Source: an uncultured Candidatus Saccharibacteria bacterium (GTDB lineage Bacteria > Patescibacteriota > Minisyncoccia > Phycocordibacterales > UBA9973). Taken from it: a DNA stretch of 64,000 nt. The number at the start of each line of letters is the position of its first letter. The first letter of the stretch is position 1. The position numbers were made by a program, and so were the translations under genes. The notes beneath the pieces are model-generated. The model saw only the letters and a program-made list of their open reading frames with translations. It ran no database searches and was not told the origin of the DNA. Location: assembly GCA_964606295.1 (NCBI GenBank), contig CAZSFR010000001.1, positions 56,504-120,503 of the forward strand. The letters are read 5' to 3'. Positions 9,513 to 59,024 of the stretch are shown here, piece by piece.

Positions 9513-9541
9513 GCGCCCCGTCGCAATGTTGAAAACTAAGT

Positions 9542-9613
9542 GCGTGTGGAAAGAATCGAACTTTCGGCCTCTGTCTTATCAGGACAGCGTTCTACCACTG
9601 AACTACACACGCA
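9542..9613 (-). tRNA. tRNA-Ile (anticodon GAU). No encoded CCA.
   Basis: Hand-folded cloverleaf. Acceptor stem GCGUGUG/CACACGC with 7 of 7 bp, D-arm GUUC…GAAC, anticodon stem CUGUC/GACAG with loop CUGAUAA, 5-nt variable region, T-arm GAAAG-UUCGAUU-CUUUC, discriminator A. Confidence 0.8.
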
Positions 9614-28291: not shown

Positions 28292-28305
28292 ATTTTGATA
28301 CTGAA

Positions 28306-36191: not shown

Positions 36192-36195
36192 AATT

Positions 36196-36705
36196 TTAGT
36201 ATTTTACATCTCGCTTATAAGTACGTGAGGAATCATCAGCATTTCTAAACAACAGATATCCTGACAAAGATGATGTCGTGTCTGGGTACACTAGTGTCGT
36301 AACAAAACTAGTCGTTGTCGTTGTGCCTCCTCCCAAAACAGAAACTGGAATTTCAGTCGTTAGCGGTGTGCCTGATGCGGAATAAAGTCCGACATAGGCA
36401 ATGCCGTTGGATGAAGCCTGCCAACCGCAACCGTTCACGTATCCTTGTATAACGAGAGGGCTCGATATGGATTGGTTATCTGCCGGAGTTTCTACAATGA
36501 TTCCACACACAATGTCGTTTGCTGTGGGACTGTCTGTGTCTGCTGAAACTATTACATCATCTGGAATAGGGACTGTTGGATTGACGGGTTCATATGCATG
36601 CTTGATATTCTGACTAAAGAATCCTATCAAGACCAAACACAATATTAGCCCGATAATCAAAAGAAGTGGCGCAATAAATCCCTTTTGAGATGTCGATTGA
36701 TTCAT
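36196..36705 (-). CDS. Hypothetical secreted or anchored 169-aa protein with a Thr-rich C-terminus.
   Basis: N-terminal TM/signal (FIAPLLLIIGLILCLVLIGFF). Confidence 0.4.
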   Translation of the reverse strand: MNQSTSQKGFIAPLLLIIGLILCLVLIGFFSQNIKHAYEPVNPTVPIPDDVIVSADTDSPTANDIVCGIIVETPADNQSISSPLVIQGYVNGCGWQASSNGIAYVGLYSASGTPLTTEIPVSVLGGGTTTTTSFVTTLVYPDTTSSLSGYLLFRNADDSSRTYKRDVKY

Positions 36706-42026: not shown

Positions 42027-42713
42027 TCAATCAGTGGAAGGAATGGTCAGCGCGAGAGATTCGAGGAGCATCTTGGTCATTGCGCCTCGGTCTCTTAGAT
42101 ATGATTTTGTTTCAAGAAGCTTTCTCATACTATCAGCACTCACACTTCCATTTTTCATTTTTTCATACATATATTGCTCGAGTGCATCGACAAGCAATAG
42201 TGCTTCTGCTCTGAAAACACTTTCCTCTTTGTTTTTCTTTTTTTTTGCATTCATTTTTTCAATAATAACTATCCGCTCACTCGAACTTGCTTTCAAAAAG
42301 CTTTTTGCTTCTGCGACATACGTCTCTACTCTGTGAATATCTTTGTATATAGTAAATCGTGAGAGAAATGTGTCTGGAAATTGGACATAAGGAGATGCAA
42401 AAAAGAAAAAACGAGTTTTGTCTCCTGGTTCTTCTACCATTTTCAATATTGTTTGCACTGCTTCATAGTTGACACCGCCAAAGGAAGCAAAAATGAGTCT
42501 TTCTCTGGTATCGTTTGGCATGAGCGAAAGTGAAGCACGAAGTTCTCGTGCTTCGTCTATAGTGAGCATATCAAAATTGTATTCTTCGACAGCAAAATTA
42601 TTTTCACCATTGTTCTGGATCAATTCTCTCGCCTGCGACAAGAGTTTCTCTCTTTCTCCAATCAAAAGATATGCGTGATGAGTAAATGGTGTCTGCAAAA
42701 ATTTTTCCATCAA
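42027..42713 (-). CDS. holB: DNA polymerase III delta-prime-like clamp-loader subunit (AAA+ fold without a P-loop).
   Basis: HAYLLIG…IDEAR…MVEEPGDKTRFFFFA resembles the delta-prime sensor/box motifs. No GxxGxGK. Confidence 0.5.
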   Translation of the reverse strand: MMEKFLQTPFTHHAYLLIGEREKLLSQARELIQNNGENNFAVEEYNFDMLTIDEARELRASLSLMPNDTRERLIFASFGGVNYEAVQTILKMVEEPGDKTRFFFFASPYVQFPDTFLSRFTIYKDIHRVETYVAEAKSFLKASSSERIVIIEKMNAKKKKNKEESVFRAEALLLVDALEQYMYEKMKNGSVSADSMRKLLETKSYLRDRGAMTKMLLESLALTIPSTD

Positions 42714-42725
42714 ATATATGCGACT

Positions 42726-43739
42726 TTATCGTTTGCTTAAAATTGACTTCTTGTATGTGTCCAAGTGTTCAAGTGCGATACCTGTGCCTTTGACGACACA
42801 ATAAAGAGGATCCTCAGCAAGTCGAGCACGCACGCCAGTTTTTCGGAAAACCAAATCGGTTAGATTGCGAAGGGATGATGTTCCTCCTGTCATAATGATA
42901 CCTTGGTCAATAATGTCAGATGCGAGTTCGGGGGGTGTTTCTGTTAGAACATCTTTGATCGCACGAATGATTTGCTTCAATTCACCATCAATAGCTTTGA
43001 CAACTTCGTTCGTCGAAATATTTGCTGAACGTGGAAGACCTTGGATAAAATCTCGCCCTTTGATAACGACTGTGAGTTCTTCTTCTACGGCAATAGCAGC
43101 ACCTATTTTAATCTTCACCAATTCTGCGGTACGGTCACCTATCGAAAGGTTGTATGTTTTCTTGATGTAATCCGCGATCGCCTGATCGATTTTGTTACCA
43201 GCGCACTTTACAGAAGTCGAAGCGACAATACCGCCAAGAGAAATCACCGCAACGTCTGTGGTTCCTCCGCCAATATCCACCACCATATGTCCACGCGACT
43301 CATGTATCGGAATTCCTGCTCCGATAGCCGCAAGGATAGGCTCCTTCACGACGTATGCATTCTTTGCTCCCGCGCGAATAGTCGCTTCCACGACCGCACG
43401 TCGCTCTGTCGAAGTGATACCTGCAGGCACCGATACCATGACATCAGGTCTGAAGAAACCGTACTTACCGAGCGCTTTCCTGATGAAGTAGCGAAGCATC
43501 GCTTCTGTCACTCTATAATCTGCGATCACGCCGTCTTTCATAGGACGATACGCAATGATGTTCTCTGGTGTCTTCCCTACCATTTCTTTTGCCTCGACAC
43601 CGATAGCGAGCACTTTGTTATCTTCTTCAGATACAGCGACGACTGATGGCTCGTTGAGCACAATACCCTTTCCCGGCACATACACGAGAGTGTTTGCCGT
43701 TCCCAAATCTATTCCCAATTTCTTCGAGAAAAATCCCAT
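42726..43739 (-). CDS. mreB: Rod-shape-determining actin homolog MreB.
   Basis: GIDLGTANTLVY…, DIGGGTTDVAV, and overall MreB similarity. Confidence 0.9.
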   Translation of the reverse strand: MGFFSKKLGIDLGTANTLVYVPGKGIVLNEPSVVAVSEEDNKVLAIGVEAKEMVGKTPENIIAYRPMKDGVIADYRVTEAMLRYFIRKALGKYGFFRPDVMVSVPAGITSTERRAVVEATIRAGAKNAYVVKEPILAAIGAGIPIHESRGHMVVDIGGGTTDVAVISLGGIVASTSVKCAGNKIDQAIADYIKKTYNLSIGDRTAELVKIKIGAAIAVEEELTVVIKGRDFIQGLPRSANISTNEVVKAIDGELKQIIRAIKDVLTETPPELASDIIDQGIIMTGGTSSLRNLTDLVFRKTGVRARLAEDPLYCVVKGTGIALEHLDTYKKSILSKR

Positions 43740-43793
43740 ATATTGAGCATACTACCATAGAACGAGGACATGTGAAAAAGAAATATTTTAGCT

Positions 43794-43822
43794 TTGACAA
43801 CAATGAAATTTAGATGTAATGT
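43794..43822 (+). promoter_or_regulatory. Candidate sigma-70-type promoter for pyrE: TTGACA, 17-bp spacer, TAATGT.
   Basis: -35 at 43794-43799 and -10 at 43817-43822. pyrE ATG at 43846. Confidence 0.4.
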
Positions 43823-43845
43823 GTAAATGAACTAAAAGAAATTCA

Positions 43846-44805
43846 ATGAAAAAAATAAAAGAATATGCGGAACTTCTCGCAAAGGCTTCCCTTGAAATCG
43901 GGAGCATACAACTACGGCCAAATGATCCATTCATTTGGGCAAGTGGGACTCGTAATCCTATATACAATGATAACAGAATGCTTCTAGCTGAGTACGAACA
44001 TCGCATGCTAGTGACAAAGTCACTCATTGATGTTCTTGCTGAAAACGAAATTGGGCTACAGCACGTAGACTACATCTGCGGAACATCGCTCTCCGGCATC
44101 GGACCAGCGTCAACTCTCGCCGACATCCTTCACAAGAAAATGCTTATATTTGTAGATGATACTCCATACGAGTTCTCCTCTGTGATGAATTTACCGATTG
44201 GAAATTCGTACAATAGAAGCATTGTATCGTCTGCACCATTTGGCATACCACTTGGCGTGCTGTTTGCAAACATGTACAAACTTCGATTTTCGTACGTTCG
44301 CCCAGCAGTAAAAAAACATGGATTAAAGAAGTCGATCGAGGGAGCGGATGTAGTGAACGAAGATTTCGATTTAATCAACGTTGGCGATGATCAGGCTAAG
44401 TCGAACTGTTTATCAGCACTAAGCAATCAAGATCTACATTGCAAAACAGTGACCCATTACTCGCCTGAAAATATTTTTCAAAAAGCAGAGCTTTCAAACA
44501 AATGTGTGATTGTTGTAGAAGACTTGATATCTACAGGAGCTTCATTTGCAAAGGAGGCAGACGCATGTAAAAAGGCAGGCGCAGAGGTACTATGCGTACT
44601 AACTATATTCAATTACGAGCTAGAAAGCTCAAAGGAATTGATAGCAAAAGCTGGGTATGAAGTATATTCAGCACTCACGTACCAACAGTTACTTCAGACA
44701 GCTGTTGAATTAAAATTTGTTGATGAGAATCAACTAAAAGTGCTGAAGGAATGGCGGGAGGATCAACCCAATTGGGGAGATAAGCATGGTTTTCCAGTAA
44801 AATAA
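43846..44805 (+). CDS. pyrE: Orotate phosphoribosyltransferase, with an inserted segment of about 100 aa (319 aa total).
   Basis: N-terminal OPRTase block (…IGSIQLRPNDPFIWASGTRNPIYNDNR…) and PRPP-binding motif VIVVEDLISTGAS. Confidence 0.7.
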   Translation: MKKIKEYAELLAKASLEIGSIQLRPNDPFIWASGTRNPIYNDNRMLLAEYEHRMLVTKSLIDVLAENEIGLQHVDYICGTSLSGIGPASTLADILHKKMLIFVDDTPYEFSSVMNLPIGNSYNRSIVSSAPFGIPLGVLFANMYKLRFSYVRPAVKKHGLKKSIEGADVVNEDFDLINVGDDQAKSNCLSALSNQDLHCKTVTHYSPENIFQKAELSNKCVIVVEDLISTGASFAKEADACKKAGAEVLCVLTIFNYELESSKELIAKAGYEVYSALTYQQLLQTAVELKFVDENQLKVLKEWREDQPNWGDKHGFPVK

Positions 44806-44846
44806 ATAAAAACGTGGTGCAAATATTTGCACCACGTTATTTTTTT
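44806..44846. terminator. Perfect bidirectional intrinsic terminator shared by convergent pyrE and pyrF (ACGUGGUGCAAA-UAU-UUUGCACCACGU, A-run on one side and T-run on the other).
   Basis: 12-bp perfect stem. The T-run overlaps the pyrF stop. Confidence 0.7.
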
Positions 44847-45697
44847 TAATATGCTGTTAGTAATCGTCTTTTGCATCTCCTGATCTCTTCATCAAGTTTC
44901 AGAGCCTCTCGTCCTGCAGCCTCCGCAAAATCACCTCCAGAGCTTGCAAAAATGATTCCACGTGATGAATTTATGATGAATCCGACGCCCTCGCTATTGG
45001 CAGCAGCTCTCACTGATTTTTCCAAATCACCGCCCTGCGCTCCGATGCCGGGCACAAGGAGATTAATGTCATCTCCAACAATTTCTCTGATGCGAACAAT
45101 AGTGTCCTCTGGCTGTGTTGCACCTGTCACCAGATTGCAATTGCCATATATGTTCCATCCATTTTCTACATTTAGCGCAATCTTCTCGTAAAGATACATT
45201 CCGGATTCTTGCCCTCTTTCATCACTTTGAAATTCCTCTGCACCCTTGTTCGATGTTGCACAAAGGGCGAATGCACCTTTTTCTGAATCGGAAAGAAAAG
45301 TCATATTGGCCGTACCACCCATGAACGGAGCAATCGTGATCGCGTCAACCCCAAGCTGATGAAAAGCATAATCAACGTAGCCAAGATTGGTATTATCGAT
45401 ATCACCCCATTTTGCATCCAAAATGATAATCGCATCAGTTTGTTTTCTGATATACAAAACTGTTTCCTCAAGTGCACGCATTCCATTGATACCTGCACCA
45501 AGATAGAATGCGAAATTGGGTTTGTAGAATCCGGCAATATTCTTGGTTGCATTAATGATATCGTGGTTGAACGCGAACTGCGGAAACTCACTTCTCCAGA
45601 TTCCCGAAGGAAGTTTGCTTTTGTCACTGTCAAGTCCAACGCAAACATGTTTGCCGTCAGACTTTTGCTTTTCCATAACTCTTTGATTAAATCTCAT
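44846..45697 (-). CDS. pyrF: Orotidine-5'-phosphate decarboxylase, type 2 (long form).
   Basis: 283 aa. N-terminal …CVGLDSDKSKLP… and a KxxD-type catalytic region typical of type-2 ODCase. Confidence 0.75.
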   Translation of the reverse strand: MRFNQRVMEKQKSDGKHVCVGLDSDKSKLPSGIWRSEFPQFAFNHDIINATKNIAGFYKPNFAFYLGAGINGMRALEETVLYIRKQTDAIIILDAKWGDIDNTNLGYVDYAFHQLGVDAITIAPFMGGTANMTFLSDSEKGAFALCATSNKGAEEFQSDERGQESGMYLYEKIALNVENGWNIYGNCNLVTGATQPEDTIVRIREIVGDDINLLVPGIGAQGGDLEKSVRAAANSEGVGFIINSSRGIIFASSGGDFAEAAGREALKLDEEIRRCKRRLLTAY

Positions 45698-45777
45698 AAA
45701 AAAAATTTTGTTTGAAAATAAATTTATCTCAATGAAATTACCACATACTTCGACTCTTGTAAACTAAAACATCTGAG

Positions 45778-47715
45778 GTGGTCGGAATGCTATACTCTTC
45801 ATATATGTACGTCCTCGATGTTATCGTCATTGCCAAAGGCATACAGAAGGAAACCCTTACTTACTTCTCACTCAAGGAAGCACTGCCAGGGACGCTTGTT
45901 CGTGTGCCTGTGCGAAGCAAGATCTACCCGGCTCTTGTCGTTTCGATGAAGGACGCAGTCGATGTCAAAAGCGAAATCAAAAATTCTCCATTTGGATTCA
46001 AGAGAATAGAGAGCATTGTAGGAAACGCGCCTTTTCGCAAGGAGTCCGTGCAAGTTGCGCAGATTCTTGCTGACTATTACCTGACCGAGACAGGGGCGAT
46101 CCTCGACCTTTTCGTGCCAGAAGCAATACTTGACGAGAAAATGCCTGAGGCCAAGAAACATGAACAACGTAAGTTTACTAGTGTTCGAAACGAAAAGCTT
46201 ATTTTCCAAGCATCATTTGATGACCGAATATCTTATTACAAAACATTCATACGAGAGGCCTTTGCGCGAAAGGAATCGATTGCCCTCATTGTGCCAACCA
46301 TCAACGACGCAACCCTTTTTTATGAGCATCTCTCAAAGGGAATCGAGGAGAACGTCGTTTTACTCACAAGCAATCTCACGTCGAAGAAAACTCAGACAAC
46401 TTGGAGAAAGGTTCTTGACGAATCTCACGTCAAACTGATTATTTCAACTCCACTTTTTCTGTCACTTCCACGCACAGATGTGAGTATTCTTATTATTGAA
46501 AGAGAATCCTCGAGTGCATATACTTCACGAACGCGTCCTCATGTCGACCAGAGACTCTACGCGGAAGTGCTGGCAACAAAGCTCGATATGAAAATTATAT
46601 TTGCAGATACTTTGCTTCGTGTTGAGACGATTGCACGACGTGAGCAAGGAGAATTCGACGAAGTCATGCCGACATCATTTCGCTTACCGCCAGTTCGCGA
46701 TTTGCAGATTATTTCTATGATTGATAATGCAAACAAAACACCTCTTTCTCCGTATTTCTCACCACAATTGATTGATCACATAACGCGTTCGCTTTCATCA
46801 AAACAAAATGTATTCTTGTTCGCTCTTCGCCACGGCATCGCAACGAAGATTACTTGCGCGGATTGCGGACTTGTTGTCTTGTGTGATAAATGCAACGTGC
46901 CATTCACTCTCTTTGAAAAGGACAAAAAGCGAATTCTTATATGCAAAAATTGTAAACTGGAGAAAATCGCACCAACTCATTGTCAGTCTTGCGAAAGTTG
47001 GCGACTCCTCCCGCTTGGTGTTGGTGTCGAAGCACTTGCAGAAAGTGCAAGAATACTTTTCCCCGAAGTACAAATATTTCGAATTGATAGCACGCAGAAT
47101 AAATCACCAAAGAGCGCCACTCTAATTGCGAAATCATTTGAGGAATCCGGTGGAGCTATACTTGTTGCTACAGAAATGGCATTTGGTTATCTCACGTCCC
47201 CGGTTTCATCTTGTGCGGTTATTTCATTCGACACACTACTTTCACTTCCACATTTTGACCGCGAAGAGCGACTGGCGCAACTACTTGGAACACTATCCCT
47301 CGTTGCGGACAGGTCACTCATTGTTCAAACCCGACATCCAGACAGTCACCTGCTCGTGAGCATGCAGGGTGGTTCAATGCTCGATTGGTATAGAAAGGAA
47401 ATTCAAAGCAGGAAGGATGCCAACTACCCTCCTTTTGCCCGTCTTATACGACTCTCGTATGTAGGACCAAGGGAAAAGGAAGAAGACCTTCGCCGTTACG
47501 CAGAATCTCTTCTCATTGGTTATCACCCACACTCCTATCGCGGACCTCATCACGGCATATTCAGAGAAACTCCATATCTTCTTCTTCAGTTAGCACCGAC
47601 TCTTTGGAGTACAAATAAAGACGTGGCACATCGCGACAATGTCTTGCTCCCTATACTACTGCGACTAAAGGGTGTCTGGGATATAGAAATAGACCCGAAG
47701 AACCTATACAACTAA
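45778..47715 (+). CDS. priA: Primosomal protein N' (PriA) homolog with a Cys4-Cys4 zinc-binding region but degenerate Walker A and Walker B motifs. The true start may be Met10 at 45805.
   Basis: The PriA zinc region CADCGLVVLCDKCNVPF…ICKNCKLEKIAPTHCQSCES is present. The N-terminal 3'-binding/WH region is PriA-like. At the Walker A position the sequence is RISYYKT rather than GSGKT, and at the DEEH position it is IIERESS. Confidence 0.7.
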   Translation: MVGMLYSSYMYVLDVIVIAKGIQKETLTYFSLKEALPGTLVRVPVRSKIYPALVVSMKDAVDVKSEIKNSPFGFKRIESIVGNAPFRKESVQVAQILADYYLTETGAILDLFVPEAILDEKMPEAKKHEQRKFTSVRNEKLIFQASFDDRISYYKTFIREAFARKESIALIVPTINDATLFYEHLSKGIEENVVLLTSNLTSKKTQTTWRKVLDESHVKLIISTPLFLSLPRTDVSILIIERESSSAYTSRTRPHVDQRLYAEVLATKLDMKIIFADTLLRVETIARREQGEFDEVMPTSFRLPPVRDLQIISMIDNANKTPLSPYFSPQLIDHITRSLSSKQNVFLFALRHGIATKITCADCGLVVLCDKCNVPFTLFEKDKKRILICKNCKLEKIAPTHCQSCESWRLLPLGVGVEALAESARILFPEVQIFRIDSTQNKSPKSATLIAKSFEESGGAILVATEMAFGYLTSPVSSCAVISFDTLLSLPHFDREERLAQLLGTLSLVADRSLIVQTRHPDSHLLVSMQGGSMLDWYRKEIQSRKDANYPPFARLIRLSYVGPREKEEDLRRYAESLLIGYHPHSYRGPHHGIFRETPYLLLQLAPTLWSTNKDVAHRDNVLLPILLRLKGVWDIEIDPKNLYN

Positions 47716-47762
47716 GTCGTTTCCATTTGCAAAATGAAATTTGTTGTGTTAATCTAACGTTT

Positions 47763-47993
47763 ATGGCAACAATCCAAATCAATGTTCAAAAGAATTCAGG
47801 AGAGACAAGCGCAAGCGTGCTTCGTCGATTCACAAAGAAAGTTCAGGAGACTAGAATTATTCAGAAAGTAAAAGGACAGCGTTACAACACCCGCCCAAAA
47901 TCCTCACTAGTTCGCAAGAAGGGTGCTCTCCGACGAATCGCAAAACTCAAAGAAACTGATCGTCTAAAGAAGCTCGGCAAAATCAAGGAATAG
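47763..47993 (+). CDS. rpsU: Ribosomal protein S21.
   Basis: …ASVLRRFTKKVQETRIIQKVKGQRYNTRPKSSLVRKKGALRRIAKLKE matches the S21 pattern. Confidence 0.65.
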   Translation: MATIQINVQKNSGETSASVLRRFTKKVQETRIIQKVKGQRYNTRPKSSLVRKKGALRRIAKLKETDRLKKLGKIKE

Positions 47994-47994
47994 T

Positions 47995-48468
47995 ATGTAC
48001 AGAGAGTTTGGTAACGTTTCAATAAAAAGAGAGACATATGGTAAGCTCCCCAGCTTGCCATATTTTTCTATTAAAAATAAAGTCCTTGGAAAAAAATATG
48101 AGCTTTCGATTCTTTTTGCCACTCCCCAAAATGCTCAAAAGCTAAATCATCTCTATAGAAAGAAATCATACACACCCAATATTCTTTCTTTCTCACTTAA
48201 TAAAAGTTCTGGTGAACTTGTTCTGTGTCTCGGTACAATCCGCTCCCAAGCAAAAAGTTTTGAGATGTCATACCAAGATTTTCTCTCATACCTCTATATT
48301 CATGGTCTTTTGCATTTGAAAGGAATCGAACATGGTAGTACAATGGAGAGAGAGGAAAACGCCATCTTCAAAAAGTTTTTTGGCGACGATCTACCACATG
48401 GCACGAACCATACTCACAGGCATCGACATAGGAACATCTCACACTCGCGTCGTCATCGTCGAGTATAA
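47995..48468 (+). CDS. ybeY: rRNA maturation endoribonuclease YbeY.
   Basis: Zinc-binding motif HGLLHLKGIEH (H-x3-H-x5-H). Confidence 0.75.
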   Translation: MYREFGNVSIKRETYGKLPSLPYFSIKNKVLGKKYELSILFATPQNAQKLNHLYRKKSYTPNILSFSLNKSSGELVLCLGTIRSQAKSFEMSYQDFLSYLYIHGLLHLKGIEHGSTMEREENAIFKKFFGDDLPHGTNHTHRHRHRNISHSRRHRRV

Positions 48469-49564
48469 AAAAAACGACTCAGAGCCAACACTTATCGGTG
48501 CTGGTATCGCTCTTTCTGGTGGTGTGCGAAAAGGCTACATCGTCAATTCCAACCTCGCGATTGCATCTGTCCGTGACGCAGTATCACAAGCTGAAAAGCA
48601 GGCCGGTATCAAGATCAAGAAAGCATCTCTTTCTGTTGGTGGCATCGGTCTATCGACAGATACTGCGATTGGTACAGCTACTTCCACACGTGTCGACAAC
48701 ACAATCACAGAACTCGATGTTGAAAGGACAATGCGGGCATGCGAAGAAGCGCTGAAAGATAGGAACAAAAAGGTTGTTCATCGTATCCCTCTGGCGTACA
48801 AATTGGATGCAAAGCCTGTCCTCGGTGACCCTGTCGGTATGAAAGGAAAAAAACTCGAAGGAAAGGCTCTTTTTATTACTTGTTTGTCTCAACACATTGA
48901 ACGACTCGTCGAAACAGTGACTACGGCTGGTATCGAAGTAACAAGCATCATTGCTTCTCCTGTTGCAGTCGCAACAGTTGTACTCAATGAACGAGAGAAA
49001 ATCGCAGGCTCAATGCTCGCACACATAGGCGCAGAAACCGTCGGTACTGTCGTTTATGAAGATGGAAATATCCTTTCTCTCTCAATGATTCAGATTGGCT
49101 CTGCAGATATTACCAACGATATTGCTCTTGGTCTCAAAACATCTTTAGAGGAGGCGGAAGGAATCAAAGTAGGAACAGTCATATCAAGCACGTCAAAGAA
49201 GAAAATAGACGAGATCATTGAAGCACGACTGACAGATATTTTCGAATTAATAGAAAAGCATTTGAAGAAAATCGGACGCAGTGCACTCTTACCTGCCGGC
49301 ATTATATTTACTGGAGGTGGTTCACATCTTGGAAATTTGACTGACCTAGCAAAGCGCGAGCTCAAACTTCCCTCACGGATTGGTTTTATAAACGAGAGAT
49401 TTGATGGCAAGATGAAACTCAAAGATTCTGCATGGTTCCCCGCATATGGTTCATGTGTCTGCGAACACTCGTCGCCTTTTCCAGACGATGAATCTCGTGT
49501 TCCTCCATCAGATGGCGCTTTCAAAGAAACTTTCTTGGGATTTCTAAGACAATTGCTCCCATAA
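48398..49564 (+). CDS. ftsA: Cell division protein FtsA. Start is at MARTILTGIDIGTSH.
   Basis: Actin-fold phosphate motifs (GIDIGTSHTRVV…, …FTGGGSHL…). Sits immediately upstream of ftsZ. Confidence 0.8.
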   Translation: MARTILTGIDIGTSHTRVVIVEYKKNDSEPTLIGAGIALSGGVRKGYIVNSNLAIASVRDAVSQAEKQAGIKIKKASLSVGGIGLSTDTAIGTATSTRVDNTITELDVERTMRACEEALKDRNKKVVHRIPLAYKLDAKPVLGDPVGMKGKKLEGKALFITCLSQHIERLVETVTTAGIEVTSIIASPVAVATVVLNEREKIAGSMLAHIGAETVGTVVYEDGNILSLSMIQIGSADITNDIALGLKTSLEEAEGIKVGTVISSTSKKKIDEIIEARLTDIFELIEKHLKKIGRSALLPAGIIFTGGGSHLGNLTDLAKRELKLPSRIGFINERFDGKMKLKDSAWFPAYGSCVCEHSSPFPDDESRVPPSDGAFKETFLGFLRQLLP

Positions 49565-49740
49565 TAAAATATCCTCAACCTACAGTGGAAAGAGGCATCG
49601 CGCAAGCAGTTTTTTCTTACAAGTGAAGGCAATCGAAATCAAGCCGTGACTACTTTCCTTTTTTTTAGTTTCTGGTATTATGGTATCCGTAATTTAACGG
49701 CCGAAACTTAACCCAATCTATTAATTAGCCCAACACATAT

Positions 49741-50916
49741 ATGCCAAAAGTCAATCCTACTATCGAATCTTTCGCTCGTATCAAAGTTATCGGAATCGGT
49801 GGCTCTGGCAAAAACGCCTTGAACCACATGATCAACTCCAAAGTTCGTGGAGTTGAATTCATCGCAATGAATACCGACACACAGGATTTGCACAATTCAC
49901 TTGCAGAGAAAAAGATTCACATTGGCAAGAATCTTACCAAAGGACTCGGCGCAGGGATGAACCCTGAAATCGGTCGCAAAGCTGCTGAGGAAACAAAAAC
50001 AGAAATCCAAGACGTTATCAAAGGTGGCGAGATGGTATTCATAGCATGTGGTATGGGTGGAGGTACGGGTACGGGAGCAGCGCCTACAGTTGCTCGAGCA
50101 GCAAAAGAAAGCGGTGTACTCACTGTAGGTGTTGTCACAAAACCATTTTCATTTGAAGGACGCGAGAGAATGCGTCTAGCAGAAGAAGGTCTTGCCGAAT
50201 TAGAAAAAGAGGTTGACGCAATCATTATAATTCCGAACGACAGACTGCTCTCAATCACAAGTAAAGAAACAAGTTTGAAAAATGCTTTCTCAATGTGCGA
50301 CGAAGTCTTGCGACAAGCCGTCGAAGGAATCTCTGACTTGATTACAATTCCTGGTGACATCAACGTAGACTTCAACGATATCAAAACAATTATGGCAAAT
50401 GCTGGAACAGCACTCATGGGTATCGGTACGGCGACGGGAGACAAGCGAGCAGAAAAATCTGCATTTGATGCAATCAACTCTCCCCTTCTTGAAGTTTCTA
50501 TAAATGGAGCAAAAGGTATCCTGCTTTCGATTGCAGGTGGAGATGATCTCACTCTACATGAAGTTGCTGAGGCTGCGAAGATAGTTACGGAATCTGCAGA
50601 TAAGGACGCAAAAGTCATATTCGGTACATGCAAAGACGAACGTCTCAAGAAGGGAGAGATGAAAGTCACTGTCATCGCTACTGGCTTCCCTACCGCAAGT
50701 GGATCCGTTCAAAAGAAGTCACTTTTTGAAAAGCCAATTATTTCTGCTTCAACGTCACATCTAGAGGAGCGCAAGGAAATTCACAACACTCTTCCTGATG
50801 CAAATTTGGAAAAAAGAATAGCAACGGCTGAAATCATCGAAGACGATTCACTTTTGGGAGGTGACGATACAGACGATTGGAGCGCAGTTCCTGCATTCTT
50901 GCGAAGAAAGAAATAA
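49741..50916 (+). CDS. ftsZ: Cell division GTPase FtsZ.
   Basis: Tubulin signature GGGTGTGAAP, T7 loop, and overall FtsZ similarity. Confidence 0.95.
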   Translation: MPKVNPTIESFARIKVIGIGGSGKNALNHMINSKVRGVEFIAMNTDTQDLHNSLAEKKIHIGKNLTKGLGAGMNPEIGRKAAEETKTEIQDVIKGGEMVFIACGMGGGTGTGAAPTVARAAKESGVLTVGVVTKPFSFEGRERMRLAEEGLAELEKEVDAIIIIPNDRLLSITSKETSLKNAFSMCDEVLRQAVEGISDLITIPGDINVDFNDIKTIMANAGTALMGIGTATGDKRAEKSAFDAINSPLLEVSINGAKGILLSIAGGDDLTLHEVAEAAKIVTESADKDAKVIFGTCKDERLKKGEMKVTVIATGFPTASGSVQKKSLFEKPIISASTSHLEERKEIHNTLPDANLEKRIATAEIIEDDSLLGGDDTDDWSAVPAFLRRKK

Positions 50917-50968
50917 GTTTACTCACAAAAGGCCTCGATTTTCCGAGGCTTTTGTTTTGTGTTATGAT

Positions 50969-51916
50969 ATGACAACTATGGAACAAACAACCTACGATCT
51001 CATCATCATCGGCGGAGGGCCTGCAGGTGCTGCAGGCGCTGTCTATGCGTCACGCAAGAGACTAAAAACTCTTCTTATTACATATACTTTTGGTGGACAA
51101 TCCACTGATTCGTCTGACATCCAAAACTGGATCGGAACACCATCTATTTCAGGTGCTGACCTTGGCAAATCCCTTGAGACTCATATCAAAGCTTATGCAG
51201 ACGATGTCCTCACTATCGTCGAGGGAGAGAACGTGACAAAAGTAAAAGGAATTGAAAATTCATTCACTGTCTCAACTGATGCAGGTAAAGAGTATGAGGG
51301 AAAAACTATCCTTGTCACATCAGGTTCAGGCCGTAGAAAACTCGCAATACCTGGAGCAGACGTACTCGAACACAAAGGTATTACCTACTGCGCGTCATGC
51401 GACGGACTTTTGTTTCAAGGTATGGATGTCGCTGTCATAGGAGGAGGCAATGCAGGATTTGAAACTGCAGCACAACTTCTTGCCTATACCAAGAGCGTGA
51501 CTCTTTTCAATCGCGCGGATACTTTCAAGGCGGACGAAATCACTGTGGAGAAAGTTCTTTCTCATCCCTACATGACAGCTCTCAAAAATGTAGATTTGGT
51601 GTCAGTTGAGGGAGACAAGTTTGTATCTGGTTTGAAATACAAGGATATGACAACAAATGAGGAGAAACTTCTCCCTGTGCAAGGCATTTTTGTCGAAATC
51701 GGCCAGATTCCAAATACAGCTCTTGTAAAGGATTTTTTAACTCTCGATCAATACGGAAAAGTAGTAACCGATCCTATGACCCAAAGAACCTCAGTCAAGG
51801 GCGTATGGGCTGCAGGAGACTGCACAGACGGACTCTATCACCAAAACAACATCGCCGCTGGCGATGCTGTAAAAGCGCTTGAGGATATCTATCTCTATAT
51901 CCACGCAGGTAAATAA
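50969..51916 (+). CDS. trxB: Thioredoxin-reductase-like FAD/NAD(P) oxidoreductase. Start is at MTTMEQ.
   Basis: GGGPAG FAD motif, redox-active CASCDG, and a second dinucleotide motif GGGNAG. Confidence 0.7.
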   Translation: MTTMEQTTYDLIIIGGGPAGAAGAVYASRKRLKTLLITYTFGGQSTDSSDIQNWIGTPSISGADLGKSLETHIKAYADDVLTIVEGENVTKVKGIENSFTVSTDAGKEYEGKTILVTSGSGRRKLAIPGADVLEHKGITYCASCDGLLFQGMDVAVIGGGNAGFETAAQLLAYTKSVTLFNRADTFKADEITVEKVLSHPYMTALKNVDLVSVEGDKFVSGLKYKDMTTNEEKLLPVQGIFVEIGQIPNTALVKDFLTLDQYGKVVTDPMTQRTSVKGVWAAGDCTDGLYHQNNIAAGDAVKALEDIYLYIHAGK

Positions 51917-53689: not shown

Positions 53690-54601
53690 TTATTGTACCT
53701 TTATTTTCTTAAATTTTCTAGGAACGAAGAAGATAACAAATGCAAAAATAGCAGTAACTATGAGAAGTGGTATCACCAAAATCGATACCGGAAAAAATTG
53801 CTCAGAATGTATTTGGGCTATACGTACGTTGCCAGCATTATCAATGGCCTTTACGCGTACTAGCGACCTCATAGATTGATCCTCTAGAAGATACGGGCTT
53901 TCTGCAACTTTCCAATCAGAATTGCCCTCCTTTACCTCAAAACGACTAATCCCAGACTCTTTGTCAGTTGTAGAAAATATCAAAAAATATTTTCCATCAA
54001 AAATGTATTGATTACTGGATATTTGTGGATAGAAAACCAAAGGTCTTTCAATGTCACTCGCGAAATTAGTACCGACTTCGCCCGTTTCGGAGGAAATCAC
54101 CCTAAATGGATATAGCAAAGTGGGAGCTTTGGTGCCAAGCCCATCATTAAAATACGCTTGCCCTGTTGTAAGGTACAACTCGGATGTAGAAATGGACTTT
54201 GTGGTAAAAATTGCAGAAAATAGTTTACCATCGAGATATGTCTGGTCTAGTGGGTTGATCGTGCCTCCAAATCCTCCAACCATTATCCCTGAAAATTTGA
54301 CACTCGATCCATTTGCTTTTGGTCTCTCAATCCACGAGGTAACAACAGAACTACCATCTCTAATACCAACCAACTCCAAGTGTTCATCGTCAAAAACCAA
54401 CTCTCCCTCGACTGCATTTATCAATTCTTCACTGGAATTTATAAAGACAGTGACTTCAAATTCAGCATTCGCTAGTACGGGGAATTTTTGATCTGATTGA
54501 AAGTAAATAGTCGCAGCATTAGCTTGCTTGTGTCCCAGAAAAAGCATGCTAAGAGTCACGAGGAGAATAAAAGTACATTTTTTTGAAAATAAATTGATCA
54601 T
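53690..54601 (-). CDS. Surface protein with an N-terminal cohesin-like domain and a C-terminal TM anchor.
   Basis: ATIYFQSDQKFPVLANAEFEVTVFINSSEELINAVEGELVFDDEHLELVGIRDGS… is a cohesin-like block. C-terminal TM plus KFKK tail. Confidence 0.5.
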   Translation of the reverse strand: MINLFSKKCTFILLVTLSMLFLGHKQANAATIYFQSDQKFPVLANAEFEVTVFINSSEELINAVEGELVFDDEHLELVGIRDGSSVVTSWIERPKANGSSVKFSGIMVGGFGGTINPLDQTYLDGKLFSAIFTTKSISTSELYLTTGQAYFNDGLGTKAPTLLYPFRVISSETGEVGTNFASDIERPLVFYPQISSNQYIFDGKYFLIFSTTDKESGISRFEVKEGNSDWKVAESPYLLEDQSMRSLVRVKAIDNAGNVRIAQIHSEQFFPVSILVIPLLIVTAIFAFVIFFVPRKFKKIKVQ

Positions 54602-54606
54602 ATGAT

Positions 54607-55545
54607 TTATCCAGTCCAGTAATATGCCAATATAGAGAAATCGACAAGCGTAATACGGCCATCTCCTGACAAATCTAGTTCAAGTGGCGCTCCCAATCTC
54701 CCGTACCAATACGCCAATATAGAAAAGTCTGTGATATTCACTCTGCAGTCTCCTGTGAAGTCTCCTTTTGGCGGACAACCTGAATTTAGAACAGTCTCAT
54801 TACCAACAGTAAATCCAACTATACTAGAATAAGATGTTACTTCTGCTCCGAGTGTTGACAACGACCTTGTGCTATGTGAGCCAAGTTCCAATACACCCGT
54901 ATTGAACCTATAGAGATATGCACCATAGTCGTCAGATGTCGTAGACAAAAAATACGGAACCAATGAATTAACATTGATAGTTATCGAAGCGTTTGGTGCA
55001 CTTTCCCCGAGTATAGTGATCGTTTCTCCTTTTGCAACAACAGTCTTATCGATAGATATAGTAGGGGCAATATAGATACCAGAAATAGTAGTCGATATAT
55101 TTTCTGTTACTACAATAGGAAATGTGAAGAGTGTTGACCTTCTCTCTTCACTATCCTCAGCCAAAACAGAAAACGTATACGAACCAGCTGGTAAATCAGA
55201 GATTGTTAGTGTAAATTTTGCATCAAGTCCAGCTGTAGTTTGTGCAATCTCAACTCCGTCTTGCAAAAATATTACTGCGGAGAAGGGATAAGCTCTGCCG
55301 GAGAACGTGACAGATGAATCTCCATCGTTCTGACCTCCTCCACCACCGCCCCCACCACCTCCTGCTCCTCCAGGATCGCCCACAGCAACAGTTGCAGTTA
55401 TGGTGACGTCTTCACTTACAGCACCCAACTCTCTTGGAGTTGAATCGTAAAAGATTCCTACTCCGAGAATGATAATTACAGATAAAATGCACCTGAATGA
55501 TTTATATAAATCATTCTTACTAAACTTTAGGAGTGGAAGTTTCAT
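54607..55545 (-). CDS. Secreted protein with a poly-Gly run (GGAGGGGGGGGGGQ), Ig-like domains and a C-terminal type-I-like dockerin (two Ca-binding repeats).
   Basis: C-terminus GDFTGDCRVNITDFSILAYWYG…DLSGDGRITLVDFSILAYYW is two D-x-x-G-D-x-x-V/I-N/T-x-x-D-F-x-x-L repeats. Confidence 0.55.
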   Translation of the reverse strand: MKLPLLKFSKNDLYKSFRCILSVIIILGVGIFYDSTPRELGAVSEDVTITATVAVGDPGGAGGGGGGGGGGQNDGDSSVTFSGRAYPFSAVIFLQDGVEIAQTTAGLDAKFTLTISDLPAGSYTFSVLAEDSEERRSTLFTFPIVVTENISTTISGIYIAPTISIDKTVVAKGETITILGESAPNASITINVNSLVPYFLSTTSDDYGAYLYRFNTGVLELGSHSTRSLSTLGAEVTSYSSIVGFTVGNETVLNSGCPPKGDFTGDCRVNITDFSILAYWYGRLGAPLELDLSGDGRITLVDFSILAYYWTG

Positions 55546-56566
55546 TCATTTCTTTCTTTAGCTCCTCCTTAATCTCAGAGCGCAATGACTCCTTCAAATT
55601 TCTTCGATAATGCGTCTTTGCACGCTTCATAATATTTATAAACAAGAACAATCCAACTACTATAACAATAAGAAGGTGCCAAGGCACTACAAAAAATCCA
55701 GTTTTTGCAGTTGATGTCTGGTCACTTTCAGCTCCGTACGCTAGCGATATATTTGCAGTATAGTATCCGAAAGCAAAATTCTTCCATTCATACACAACTT
55801 TTTTGAAAAATCCTAGATTTTCAATATTTGCAACATCACTTGATCCTCTGCTTGATTGCCAAGTAGCTTCAAATCTTCTTGTCTGTGATGGTAATACGTT
55901 ACCTTGAGCGGAGTTTGCAAGAACTTTTGCCCTCACAAAACCAAACATATGTCTGATGACTATATCTCCATCTGGCTTTATCCTATCTCCGCCTGAATTT
56001 TGGAATCTGTAATAAAAAGAAACCGGGAGTGCAGTAAAAAAATTCTTATTGTCAATTGTGCCGTATTCAATAATACCTCCTTCTTCATCTACATCTCCGT
56101 TTACACGGAGCAACACCAAAACACCAGTTTTTGCACCAATTGCTATAGATCCTTCCCCGCTAACTTCAGGATTATTTGTACCCCAAAATACTGCAGCGAA
56201 ATACCCACCAGGCTCAGCTATTTCTGGTATATCGATTGTGACTGGAACTATCTTACTTGTGCCAGGTGCAAGTATTACCATGGAGTCTGTTTGCATCCAT
56301 GTTCCCAGCCCATCTACAGGAGTTACGAAACTTGGACTTCCCGTCTCCCCTTGTGCTTCAAAGTTTGAGAATGAAGAGTAAAATGTTTGACTTGTGTCTC
56401 TATCGTTTATAAGTGTAATCTCACTTTCAATAGTAGCTCCAGGGTCTCCGCTTAATTCTATGAGAACTGGCGTAAGTGTCAGAGCGTGCGCTTTGCTGAC
56501 AAAACTAGATGAAAAAATTATGACTGAGCAAAGTATAACCGCTAGTGTTGTTATTTTTTTTTGCAT
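55520..56566 (-). CDS. Bitopic surface protein: signal peptide, about 260-aa beta-rich ectodomain, C-terminal TM, basic cytoplasmic tail. The architecture is reminiscent of DUF916/DUF3324 proteins from Gram-positive WxL/Csc surface loci.
   Basis: Signal MQKKITTLAVILCSVIIFSSSFVSKAHA, TM FFVVPWHLLIVIVVGLFLFINIM, tail KRAKTHYRRNLKE… The gene begins with an A9 homopolymer. Confidence 0.45.
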   Translation of the reverse strand: MQKKITTLAVILCSVIIFSSSFVSKAHALTLTPVLIELSGDPGATIESEITLINDRDTSQTFYSSFSNFEAQGETGSPSFVTPVDGLGTWMQTDSMVILAPGTSKIVPVTIDIPEIAEPGGYFAAVFWGTNNPEVSGEGSIAIGAKTGVLVLLRVNGDVDEEGGIIEYGTIDNKNFFTALPVSFYYRFQNSGGDRIKPDGDIVIRHMFGFVRAKVLANSAQGNVLPSQTRRFEATWQSSRGSSDVANIENLGFFKKVVYEWKNFAFGYYTANISLAYGAESDQTSTAKTGFFVVPWHLLIVIVVGLFLFINIMKRAKTHYRRNLKESLRSEIKEELKKEMNETSTPKV

Positions 56567-56579
56567 TATATTTTATGTA

Positions 56580-57677: not shown

Positions 57678-57809
57678 AATCTTAGTAAGGACGTATTATC
57701 TATTATTTTATATGGATATATTATAACATTTTTACTAAAAATTGCCTCGCACATCGTCTGTGGATAACTTATCTGAACAGCTCAACCCCAGAAACAGAAT
57801 CAATCTATA

Positions 57810-58910: not shown

Positions 58911-59024
58911 AATCTTGATTAAGAGCACTTTCTCTATTAGTTTATGTATATTTATTATAGCACTTTTACAGAAAATCGTTATGCGGAACTTCTGTGGAAA
59001 GTTGATATGCATATCTCGCATTTA

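What the first reader, a model, noticed from the sequence alone, without database searches (positions are those of the whole stretch)
45778..47715. PriA homolog with intact zinc-binding and DNA-binding regions but degenerate Walker A and Walker B helicase motifs.
The Cys4-Cys4 cluster and the N-terminal 3'-end-binding/WH region are PriA-like. At the P-loop position the sequence reads …DDRISYYKTFIR… instead of GxxGSGKT, and the DExH box is IIERESS. Loss of the P-loop glycines should abolish ATP hydrolysis. E. coli PriA K230 mutants still assemble primosomes, so this may be a naturally helicase-dead restart loader. That is of interest for how replication restart works in a reduced genome.
Basis: partly seen in the sequence, partly recalled or inferred. 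Interest (0 to 1): 0.5.

Follow-up and report, generated by a model that had tools for sequence, protein, structure and literature searches.

The report
Helicase-dead PriA of Parcubacteria
This gene encodes a replication-restart protein (PriA) that keeps its DNA-fork-binding parts but has lost every residue needed to burn ATP, and the same loss is shared by hundreds of related ultra-small (CPR/Parcubacteria) bacteria, so a natural "helicase-dead" PriA is far more common than the single published case suggests.

Summary
The ORF at 45778-47715 (+) is real and is a PriA orthologue. Evidence: the PriA 3'BD Pfam hit passes its cutoff, PDB PriA matches at E=5e-34, and the AF2 model (pLDDT 88) matches E. 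coli PriA 8fak at TM 0.79. Motifs III and VI are also gone, and no P-loop exists anywhere else in the protein.

The state is clade-wide. Arg sits at the K230 position in 142/142 diverse representatives, in 81/81 species-genome copies and in 122/122 members of a deep sister subfamily, all Parcubacteria/Paceibacteria. The gene is under strong purifying selection (pN 0.22, pS saturated).

Retained parts: the 3'-end pocket (Y18, K61), the fork-wedge loop, motifs IV and V, eight Zn cysteines and the CTD. One detail is wrong: the winged-helix domain is absent.

Best reading: an ATP-independent fork-recognition and helicase-loading scaffold, a natural analogue of E. coli priA300 (K230R). It resembles D. 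radiodurans PriA, the only characterised pseudohelicase. I call it a new variant of a known kind. No paper in the searched library describes it. ATPase loss is inferred, not assayed.

The parts
45778..47715 (+). priA-like ORF (645 aa from GTG 45778; likelier starts ATG 45787 or ATG 45805; stop TAA 47713-47715)
   Evidence: P0001 (636 aa) and P0100 (642 aa) are database versions of the same protein.
45808..46119 (+). 3'-DNA-binding domain (3'BD), residues 11-114. Pocket residues: Y29 (=Ec Y18), T28 (=D17), R46 (=G37), K75 (=K61).
   Evidence: Pfam PF17764 above cutoff. AF2 pLDDT about 90. Y29 is Y in 81/81, K75 is K/R in 81/81, R46 is R in 81/81.
46120..46194 (+). Short, low-confidence linker (residues 115-139) that takes the place of the missing winged-helix domain
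   Evidence: pLDDT 65-66 with no secondary structure. 5/73 E. coli WH residues align. The clade's median linker is 31 aa.
46207..46230 (+). Former Walker A / motif I: QASFDDRI in place of GVTGSGKT (R150 = Ec K230)
   Evidence: Q144 and R150 are 81/81; R150 is 142/142 in representatives.
46486..46509 (+). Former Walker B / motif II: ILIIERES in place of VIVIDEEH (E241=D320, R242=E321, E243=E322, S244=H323)
   Evidence: E241 is 80/81 and E243 is 81/81. The catalytic-Glu position is H/R/K.
46510..46557 (+). Aromatic-rich/wedge loop (ARL) equivalent, residues 245-260. Y248, P254 and R259 are retained.
   Evidence: Y327=Y248 80/81, P333=P254 79/81, R338=R259 81/81. The loop wedges into the fork junction in 8fak (PMC10175261).
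46603..46620 (+). Former motif III: ADTLLR in place of GSATPA
   Evidence: D277 is 80/81 and R281 is 79/81, both clade-specific.
46813..46836 (+). Motif IV retained (FLFALRHG; R351=R427, G353=G429)
   Evidence: R351 81/81, G353 81/81, position 352 K in 79/81.
46843..47013 (+). Cysteine-rich region (CRR), residues 356-412: four CxxC pairs (two Zn sites) plus clade-specific D362 and W408
   Evidence: All 8 Cys are present in at least 79/81. D362 and W408 are 81/81 and sit at the E. coli PriB-docking positions D438 and T482.
47161..47178 (+). Motif V, partly retained (LVATEM; T465=T539, E466 replaces Q540)
   Evidence: T465 81/81, E466 79/81.
47290..47313 (+). Former motif VI: TLSLVADR in place of QVAGRAGR (arginine finger R584 is V)
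   Evidence: The columns are not conserved in the clade.
47440..47712 (+). C-terminal domain (residues 555-645)
   Evidence: AF2 pLDDT about 85-95 with a beta-alpha-beta fold. Whole-chain TM 0.79 to 8fak_H. The YPPF and DP motifs align to E. coli LPPW and DP.

Best explanation
The gene is the PriA orthologue of a Parcubacteria/Paceibacteria (CPR) bacterium, and it is a pseudohelicase. The two RecA-like lobes survive as a DNA-binding scaffold, but the nucleotide site has been rebuilt so that ATP can no longer be bound productively or hydrolysed. [quoted passage not shown] The lobe-1 wedge loop sits at the fork junction. The CRR, lobe 2 and CTD enclose single-stranded lagging-strand template. 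This marks an abandoned fork or D-loop and recruits the replicative helicase DnaB, either directly or through an unknown partner that may dock on the conserved D362/W408 face of the CRR. Without a motor it cannot strip a nascent lagging strand, so it should act only on forks or D-loops whose lagging arm is already single-stranded, or rely on another enzyme to clear it. Shown here: homology, fold, motif replacement, clade-wide fixation, purifying selection, retention of DNA-contact residues, and absence of the WH domain. Inferred: no ATPase activity, fork binding, DnaB recruitment, and the role of W408.
For: Homology and fold. AF2 pLDDT 87.8, pTM 0.85. Foldseek gives 8fak_H E=2e-41 with TM 0.79/0.79; the next family (Mfd) is at E about 1e-9. 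Motif loss mapped on authentic E. coli PriA; no cryptic P-loop. Fixation: R at K230 in 81/81 species-genome copies, 142/142 50%-identity representatives and 122/122 sister-subfamily members. 242 GTDB species genomes were confirmed using the degenerate Walker A peptide as a search pattern. Selection: pN 0.22 against pS 0.82 (saturated) versus the 68%-identical orthologue; lobe 1 pN is 0.20, no higher than the other domains. Retained ATP-independent elements: Y18, K61, ARL Y/P/R, motif IV R-K-G, T539, 8 Cys. Orthology: conserved neighbourhood mreB<->priA-rpsU-ybeY-ftsA-ftsZ in most of 80 loci; the sister subfamily sits in the classical priA-def-fmt arrangement. [quoted passage not shown] K230A PriA loads DnaB in vitro, and ATPase is not needed for the PriA-PriB pathway (PMC10175261). 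D. radiodurans PriA has the same K->R change, lacks ATPase and helicase activity, and binds ssDNA, forks and DnaB (PMC4504706).
Against: The former nucleotide cleft is among the most conserved parts of the protein (Q144, R150, Y154, R159, E241, E243, D257, R259, D277, R281, E466), which could mean it still binds a ligand. TIGR00595 scores below its trusted cutoff (208 < 230). PriB, DnaT and PriC are not expected outside Proteobacteria, and no partner was identified. No DnaB, loader or SSB gene lies in the scanned part of the 64-kb window. I could not scan whole genomes for a second, canonical PriA. In E. coli, PriA must unwind a duplex lagging arm before the CRR switch occurs (PMC13594977 abstract), so a motor-less PriA has a narrower substrate range.
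Confidence: 0.72

Rival explanations
1. Non-canonical ATPase or nucleotide sensor: the rebuilt cleft (R150, E241, E243, T465, E466 and others) still binds ATP or another nucleotide or ligand, either hydrolysing it by an unusual mechanism or using binding as a conformational switch.
For: The cleft residues are invariant or nearly so across two deep subfamilies. That is more conservation than a merely empty pocket needs. An acidic residue is kept at the Mg-binding D320 position. A second, weaker nucleotide site has been proposed for E. coli PriA (PMC5778457).
Against: All three P-loop glycines are replaced (Q144, variable, D/E149). T231 becomes hydrophobic. The catalytic Glu becomes H/R/K. The motif VI arginine finger is lost. 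K230R alone kills E. coli PriA ATPase, and the K->R Deinococcus protein has no measurable ATPase. Acidic residues in the P-loop would repel phosphate.
Confidence: 0.1
2. Neofunctionalised PriA-derived DNA-binding protein that no longer works in replication restart, for example in chromosome segregation or division, given its conserved position upstream of ftsA-ftsZ and next to mreB.
For: The priA-rpsU-ybeY-ftsA-ftsZ arrangement, divergent from mreB, is conserved in most of 80 loci. The WH domain and ATPase are lost. New clade-specific invariant residues exist (W408, R46, D277).
Against: The sister subfamily carries the same derived residues but sits in the classical priA-def-fmt context. The 3'-end-binding pocket Tyr and Lys and the wedge loop, which are specific to fork recognition, are conserved. 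The cluster also holds unrelated housekeeping genes (rpsU, ybeY, trxB), so the synteny carries little functional signal.
Confidence: 0.1
3. Redundant paralogue: the genome also has a canonical, ATP-hydrolysing PriA elsewhere, and this copy is an accessory or regulatory pseudoenzyme.
For: Only 64 kb of the genome is visible. Whole-genome checks were not possible with the capped scans.
Against: tblastn with four canonical PriAs finds only this locus in the window. None of the top 150 representatives or the 226 sister-family hits is canonical. None of the canonical PriAs recovered carried a Parcubacteria or Patescibacteria name. Genomes of about 0.7-0.85 Mb (contig sizes) rarely keep paralogues. 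The sister-family gene sits in the ancestral priA-def-fmt position.
Confidence: 0.06
4. Decaying gene or annotation artefact: the motif loss reflects relaxed selection in a reduced genome.
For: CPR genomes are reduced, and the query lineage shows a few extra deviations from the clade consensus (H197T, K249T, K352H, G464A).
Against: The ORF is intact in all 80 loci. pN 0.22 against saturated pS, with lobe 1 as constrained as the rest. The replacement residues are themselves invariant across more than 300 sequences. The AF2 model is confident.
Confidence: 0.02

Closest known systems
Deinococcus radiodurans / Deinococcus-Thermus PriA pseudohelicase (Lopper, Boone & Morrow 2015, PMC4504706)
   Same: It is a PriA orthologue with poor matches to motifs I and II, and the Walker A lysine is replaced by arginine. 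The D. radiodurans protein lacks ATPase and helicase activity, still binds ssDNA and forks, and interacts with DnaB. The loss is phylum-wide rather than strain-specific.
   Different: The phylum is different (CPR/Parcubacteria). Here motifs III and VI are also replaced. The replacement residues form their own invariant signature (FQAxxx[DE]Rxxx Y[KR]T...R; E[HRK]ESS; DTLLR). The WH domain is missing. I could not obtain a Deinococcus sequence, so I made no direct alignment or tree; common origin versus convergence is untested.
E. coli priA300 (PriA K230R) and K230A/K230D laboratory alleles
   Same: The same residue change occurs at the Walker A lysine. These alleles abolish ATPase, helicase and translocase activity yet assemble primosomes, load DnaB in vitro and support the PriA-PriB pathway in vivo (PMC5778457, PMC10175261).
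   Different: Those are single-residue engineered mutants in an otherwise intact helicase that works with PriB, DnaT and DnaC. The natural protein has lost all ATP motifs and the WH domain, and it lives in genomes not expected to encode PriB or DnaT.
Canonical PriA (E. coli / K. pneumoniae; PDB 4nl4, 6dgd, 8fak)
   Same: It has the same domain order apart from the missing WH (3'BD, RecA lobe 1 with wedge loop, lobe 2 with an inserted two-zinc CRR, CTD). TM is 0.79 to 8fak_H. Y18, K61, ARL Y/P/R, motif IV, T539 and the 8 Cys are conserved.
   Different: There is no WH domain, no P-loop, no DEEH catalytic Glu or His, no motif III SAT, and no motif VI arginines. G37 becomes an invariant Arg, and Trp sits at the T482 position.
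E. coli PriA winged-helix deletion protein (PDB 6dcr)
   Same: It is a WH-less PriA architecture. Foldseek TM is 0.69/0.70 and E=1e-34.
   Different: 6dcr is an engineered construct with an active ATPase core. I could not retrieve its phenotypes from the searchable library, so I make no functional inference from it.
Aminicenantes PriA (seen here)
   Same: The Walker A is degenerate, with Arg at the K230 position (G[PS]xE[KDR]RE[AS]VY), and motif VI is lost in all roughly 70 sequences inspected.
   Different: These are full length (about 715 aa), still hit Pfam DEAD/Helicase_C, and keep DEE[QH] and most of GSAxPS. They are only about 24% identical to the query and score no closer to it than canonical PriAs do, so this is probably an independent loss.

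Membership tests
PriA (primosomal protein N') family | N-terminal 3'-DNA-binding domain (PF17764) | tested here: met
   33.4 bits against a gathering cutoff of 22.7, residues 23-114. Y18-equivalent is 81/81.
PriA (primosomal protein N') family | Two-lobed SF2 RecA-like core with a Cys-rich two-zinc insertion in lobe 2, plus a C-terminal domain | tested here: met
   AF2 model pLDDT 87.8. Foldseek TM 0.79 to 8fak_H, with the nine top hits all PriA. All 8 Cys align to E. coli C436-C479.
PriA (primosomal protein N') family | Score above the curated equivalog cutoff (TIGR00595 / PRK05580 models) | tested here: not met
   TIGR00595 gives 208.4 bits against a cutoff of 230.35. NF0040xx models give 124-213 bits against cutoffs of 763-1249. 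This explains why most relatives are annotated 'hypothetical protein'.
PriA (primosomal protein N') family | Winged-helix DNA-binding domain between the 3'BD and the helicase core (E. coli residues 109-181) | tested here: not met
   5/73 residues align. The model shows a 25-residue disordered linker. The clade's median linker is 31 aa. NCBIfam has PriA models of 612 and 648 positions that align end to end with the query, so short PriA forms probably also exist among recognised PriAs; that is my inference.
Active SF2 helicase (DExH-type) | Walker A GxxGxGK[ST] | tested here: not met
   QASFDDRI at the aligned position. No GK[ST] anywhere in the protein.
Active SF2 helicase (DExH-type) | Walker B DExH with a catalytic Glu | tested here: not met
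   ERES at the aligned position. The catalytic-Glu position is R here and H/R/K in the clade.
Active SF2 helicase (DExH-type) | Motif III (SAT) and the motif VI arginine finger (QxxGRxGR) | tested here: not met
   DTL and TLSLVADR. The motif VI columns are unconserved in the clade.
Active SF2 helicase (DExH-type) | DNA-stimulated ATP hydrolysis and 3'-5' unwinding | not testable with these tools
   This needs a recombinant protein assay.
PriA pseudohelicase (sensu Lopper 2015) | Clear descent from PriA with loss of the catalytic Walker A/B residues, including K->R at the GKT lysine | tested here: met
   R150 aligns to K230. The paper describes the same K->R change in Deinococcus-Thermus.
PriA pseudohelicase (sensu Lopper 2015) | Demonstrated absence of ATPase and helicase activity, with retained ssDNA/fork binding and DnaB interaction | not testable with these tools
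   Biochemistry is required. Only sequence and structural proxies are available (retention of DNA-contact residues).
PriA pseudohelicase (sensu Lopper 2015) | Phylogenetic membership in the Deinococcus-Thermus PriA lineage | not tested
   No Deinococcus-Thermus sequence could be obtained. The candidate intermediate P0096 proved to be from Aminicenantes.

The most novel reading that the evidence does not exclude
Loss of the PriA motor is not a Deinococcus-Thermus oddity. It is a recurrent, ancient and very widespread evolutionary outcome, seen in all sampled Parcubacteria in two deep subfamilies, in Aminicenantes, and in at least one more def-fmt-linked lineage. It repeatedly uses the same K230->R substitution. 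In Parcubacteria the dead ATP cleft has been rebuilt into an invariant charged network. Together with an invariant Trp on the CRR face that docks PriB in E. coli, this would make a constitutively 'switched-on', ATP-independent fork sensor that recruits a still-unknown CPR-specific loading partner.
Probability: 0.3. Interest if true: 0.65.

Novelty: new variant of a known kind. Interest (0 to 1): 0.5.

Why it matters
PriA's helicase motifs are described in the literature as well conserved across bacteria, with Deinococcus-Thermus as the exception (PMC4504706; PMC5778457). Here, a whole major radiation of ultra-small bacteria carries a PriA with no ATP site and no WH domain. Up to about 1,900 of the 11,600 PriA-like 50%-identity clusters detectable with this query could belong to it; that figure is an upper bound. 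This gives a natural minimal PriA: 3'BD, dead RecA scaffold, CRR and CTD. It defines which parts suffice for the ATP-independent restart function. It also supports the genetic conclusion from priA300 that the motor is dispensable for core restart. Finally, it points to conserved surfaces (W408/D362, R46) for finding the unknown restart partners in bacteria that lack PriB, DnaT and PriC. On the practical side, these proteins fall below the curated PriA cutoffs and are mostly annotated 'hypothetical', so CPR genomes may be wrongly scored as lacking replication restart.

Tried and rejected
Rejected. L-INS-i alignment with authentic E. coli PriA and 13 canonical PriAs places the degenerate strings exactly at motifs I and II, and no P-loop exists elsewhere.
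- **DESH at 214-217 as the real DExH box.** Rejected. It lies about 25 residues upstream of the motif II column, aligns to E. coli residues about 293-296, and has no partner P-loop.
- **Pseudogene or relaxed selection.** Rejected.
- **P0096 as a Deinococcus-Thermus-type link.** Rejected. It is from Aminicenantes. I therefore could not compare directly with Deinococcus sequences.
- **First genome scan with the 44-sequence alignment.** It failed because no stretch was conserved enough. A 12-sequence alignment worked.
- **Record titles.** Names such as 'uncultured Candidatus Saccharibacteria' or 'Pseudomonadales' on some TPA MAGs conflict with the Parcubacteria names of their close relatives. I did not rely on them.
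- **Literature searches.** PriA combined with Patescibacteria, Parcubacteria or Candidate Phyla Radiation found nothing relevant.
- **Replication partners in the window.** Only holB-like and DnaQ-like genes turned up; no DnaB, loader or SSB.
- **Salt-bridge geometry of the dead cleft.** I could not inspect it, because the model's coordinates are not exposed to the scripting tool.
- **dN/dS as a ratio.** It could not be computed because synonymous sites are saturated.
Full report
**1. The observation**

Two in-frame ATGs follow. ATG 45787 is preceded by GAGGTGG at a 7-nt spacing. ATG 45805 corresponds to a Met that is nearly invariant in relatives. Database versions of the protein use these starts, giving 642 and 636 aa.

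The protein is a PriA relative by every test:
- Pfam PriA_3primeBD scores above its gathering cutoff at residues 23-114.
- All significant NCBIfam hits are PriA models, though all fall below their curated cutoffs; TIGR00595 gives 208 bits against 230.
- The solved K. pneumoniae and E. coli PriA structures match at E=5e-34 to 1e-29 over residues 153-555.

**2. Motif registration**

I took authentic E. coli K-12 PriA from NC_000913.3. I aligned it with the query, 23 close and distant relatives, and 13 canonical PriAs using L-INS-i, then mapped residue by residue.

| E. coli PriA | Query |
|---|---|
| G224-VTGSG-K230-T231 (Walker A) | Q144-ASFDD-R150-I151 |
| D320-E-E-H323 (Walker B) | E241-R-E-S244 |
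| S356-A-T-P (motif III) | D277-T-L-L |
| Q580-VAGRAGR587 (motif VI) | T505-LSLVADR512 |

The proposed refutation fails. The protein contains no GK[ST] or G[KR][ST] anywhere. The only DExH-like string (DESH 214-217) is not at the motif II column. The eight CRR cysteines align one to one with E. coli C436, 439, 445, 448, 463, 466, 476 and 479.

**3.

There is no winged-helix domain. E. coli WH is residues 109-181 (PMC5778457), and only 5 of those 73 residues have an aligned partner. The profile alignment to 4nl4 leaves about 35 positions where Klebsiella has about 126. The AlphaFold2 model is confident overall (pLDDT 87.8, pTM 0.85). It shows the 3'BD at residues 11-114, a 25-residue low-confidence linker, and then lobe 1 directly.

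Foldseek finds only PriA structures at the top. The best is 8fak_H, E. coli PriA in the PriA/PriB/fork complex (E=2e-41, TM 0.79/0.79). The engineered WH-deletion PriA 6dcr scores TM 0.69/0.70. The next family, Mfd, is at E about 1e-9.

**4. It is a clade property, not an accident**

- The first homolog search split cleanly. About 68 relatives of 585-698 aa carried only the 3'BD Pfam domain; where named, they were Paceibacterota, Wolfebacteria, Kaiserbacteria or Patescibacteria. Canonical PriAs carried DEAD, Helicase_C, Zn_ribbon_PriA and PriA_C. A MAFFT alignment showed that all of the former share the replaced motifs.
- A scan of GTDB species genomes used the degenerate Walker A peptide itself ([ED][DE]R[IL]x[YF]YKT[FYL]) as one pattern. 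It confirmed relatives in 242 genomes. The 80 retrieved are almost all Parcubacteria, Nomurabacteria or Paceibacteria MAGs, several on contigs of 690-840 kb.
- In those 80 copies plus the query, Q144, R150, Y154, R159, E243, D257 and R259 are 81/81, E241 is 80/81, and the eight Cys are each at least 79/81.
- An exhaustive HMMER search of 1.84 billion 50%-identity representatives gave 11,636 hits at E<=1e-3 and 1,967 at E<=1e-30. The 150th best still scored 342 bits. Among the listed representatives, none has a P-loop and Arg occupies the K230 position in 142/142. The median linker from 3'BD to lobe 1 is 31 residues.
- A sister subfamily has 226 hits named Parcubacteria group, Paceibacterota or Minisyncoccia, a median length of 610 aa, and 26-28% identity to the query. 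It shares the derived states:

  | E. coli position | Residue in sister subfamily | Count |
  |---|---|---|
  | K230 | Arg | 122/122 |
  | E321 | Arg | 122/122 |
  | S356 | Asp | 122/122 |
  | Q540 | Glu | 122/122 |
  | T482 | Trp | 122/122 |
  | G37 | Arg | 121/122 |

  It has also lost the inner zinc site.

The loss therefore predates the split of two deep Parcubacteria lineages.

**5. It is under selection**

Against the 68%-identical orthologue in L001, synonymous sites are saturated (pS 0.82) while pN is 0.22. Lobe 1, which carries the dead motifs, has pN 0.20. That is lower than lobe 2 plus CRR (0.26) and the CTD (0.27). The replacement residues are themselves invariant. This rules out decay.

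**6. What is kept**

The retained residues are the ones that do ATP-independent work in E. coli PriA.
- **3'BD pocket.** The review lists Asp17, Tyr18, Gly37 and Lys61 as the residues that hold the leading-strand 3' end.
  - Y18 is Y29 here (81/81).
  - K61 is K75 (76 K, 5 R).
  - D17 is T/S, as in 5 of 14 canonical PriAs.
  - G37 is an invariant Arg.

  The K61 mapping depends on the alignment (K68). K75 fits the predicted secondary structure.
- **Fork-bound structure.** In 8fak, a lobe-1 loop wedges into the fork junction. The CRR, lobe 2 and CTD form a pore around lagging-strand ssDNA. The WH domain is a mobile, poorly resolved contact 10-20 bp away on the parental duplex (PMC10175261).
- **Loop and motifs.** The loop residues Y327, P333 and R338 are conserved in the clade, as is K328 (though it is T249 in the query itself). 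So are motif IV R-R/K-G and motif V T539.

**7. Mechanism proposed**

I propose an ATP-independent fork or D-loop sensor and helicase-loading scaffold.

Experiments published for other PriA proteins:
- K230R (priA300) abolishes ATPase, helicase and translocase activity but supports restart.
- K230A PriA loads DnaB in vitro, and helicase activity is not needed for the PriA-PriB pathway.
- D. radiodurans PriA carries the same K->R change. It has no ATPase or helicase activity but binds ssDNA, forks and DnaB.

Inferred for this protein:
- It lacks ATPase activity.
- It binds forks.
- It recruits DnaB.

Because E. coli PriA must unwind a duplex lagging arm before its CRR switches (PMC13594977 abstract), a motor-less PriA should be restricted to substrates with a single-stranded lagging arm, or depend on another enzyme.

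Two leads remain:
- D362 and W408 are near-invariant in both Parcubacteria subfamilies. They sit at E. coli D438 and T482, which are PriB-docking residues, and those positions vary among canonical PriAs. This is a candidate partner-docking face.
- The model resembles the fork-bound, CRR-rotated state (TMq 0.79) more than the apo crystal forms (0.63-0.69). This is only an AF2 tendency.

**8. Context**

The gene is chromosomal. In most of the 80 loci, priA heads a co-oriented run priA-rpsU-ybeY-ftsA-ftsZ-trxB. That run is divergent from mreB-holB-frr-M50 protease. The sister subfamily and another degenerate lineage (P0099) sit in the classical priA-def-fmt arrangement, which supports orthology with PriA. 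No second PriA lies in the window. No DnaB, loader or SSB lies among the window proteins scanned.

**9. Comparison with the known, and novelty**

The kind, a PriA pseudohelicase, is known from Deinococcus-Thermus. The same K->R change is the classic priA300 allele. This form differs in several ways: a different phylum, loss of motifs III and VI as well, a rebuilt and invariant cleft signature, no WH domain, and very wide distribution.

Four full-text searches found no paper describing PriA in Patescibacteria or Parcubacteria. The one joint mention concerns phylum UBP6. I therefore rate it a new variant of a known kind.

In passing, all roughly 70 Aminicenantes PriAs inspected also lack the P-loop, with Arg at K230. 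Motor loss in PriA therefore seems recurrent.

**10. Limits**

- No biochemistry was possible.
- There was no whole-genome check for a canonical paralogue.
- I had no Deinococcus sequence for a direct comparison or tree.
- The figure of 1,967 at E<=1e-30 is an upper bound on clade size, because the best canonical PriAs score near that threshold.

Noticed in passing
P0096 and P0245-P0363; locus L083: All roughly 70 Aminicenantes PriAs inspected lack GxGKT. Their consensus is L[YF]G[PS]xE[KDR]RE[AS]VY, with Arg at the E. coli K230 position, and they lack motif VI. They keep full length (about 715 aa) and DEE[QH]. This is probably an unreported pseudohelicase lineage, alongside Deinococcus-Thermus and Parcubacteria.
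   Followed up: partly
P0065-P0068 and P0364-P0481; locus L082 8001-9839: The sister Parcubacteria PriA subfamily (median 610 aa, priA-def-fmt synteny) keeps only the outer zinc site (C436, C439, C476, C479 equivalents, 122/122). The four inner cysteines are replaced by D, a gap, T/S and G. Two of the 81 sequences in the window's own subfamily show the same loss.
   Followed up: partly
window 43846-45697; L001: Two pyrimidine genes are inserted between mreB and priA only in the window and its 68%-identical relative L001, out of 80 loci. One is a pyrF (OMP decarboxylase, 44846-45697, minus strand). The other is a 319-aa orotate phosphoribosyltransferase-like gene (43846-44805, plus strand). Its N- and C-terminal halves match pyrE models, but they are separated by an insertion of about 100 residues, and it has no Pfam hit.
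   Followed up: partly
window 42726-51916 and loci L001-L080: The neighbourhood is very stable across Paceibacteria: M50 protease, frr, holB-like and mreB on one strand, divergent from priA, rpsU, ybeY, ftsA, ftsZ and trxB on the other.
   Followed up: yes
window 47995-48468 / 48332-49564: The longest ftsA ORF overlaps the 3' end of ybeY by 137 nt, so the real ftsA start is probably an internal start codon. The ybeY product has a His/Arg-rich C-terminal tail (THRHRHRNISHSRRHRRV).
   Followed up: no
window 42027-42713 (-): The holB-like gene is short (228 aa) and matches delta-prime/clamp-loader models only weakly (Pfam DNA_pol3_delta2 31.6 bits; TIGR00678 31 bits against a cutoff of 180). This looks like a reduced clamp-loader subunit, conserved next to mreB in 66 of 80 loci.
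   Followed up: no
window 53690-63032 (-), 26813-29553 (-), 34908-36705 (-): There are runs of large ORFs, including one of 1335 aa at 59025-63032, with no Pfam hit or only weak bacterial Ig-like hits. They may be lineage-specific surface or unknown proteins.
   Followed up: no
locus L084 8001-9866 / L085 (P0099, 621 aa): This is another short PriA-like protein with only a 3'BD Pfam hit and fully degenerate motifs (GQLFDPADKV at Walker A, LLFDSLSD at Walker B), in priA-def-fmt synteny. Its lineage is not identified. It suggests yet another motor-less PriA group.
   Followed up: partly
window 9540-9612 (-): A tRNA-Ile(GAT) is the only RNA gene detected in the 64 kb. There is no rRNA or other Rfam family at gathering thresholds.
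   Followed up: yes
loci L001, L004, L006 and others (record titles): Many TPA co-assembly MAGs that carry this Parcubacteria-type priA and its conserved neighbourhood are titled 'uncultured Candidatus Saccharibacteria', and some 'Pseudomonadales' or 'Burkholderiales'. These are probably wrong or placeholder taxonomic labels in the public records.
   Followed up: no
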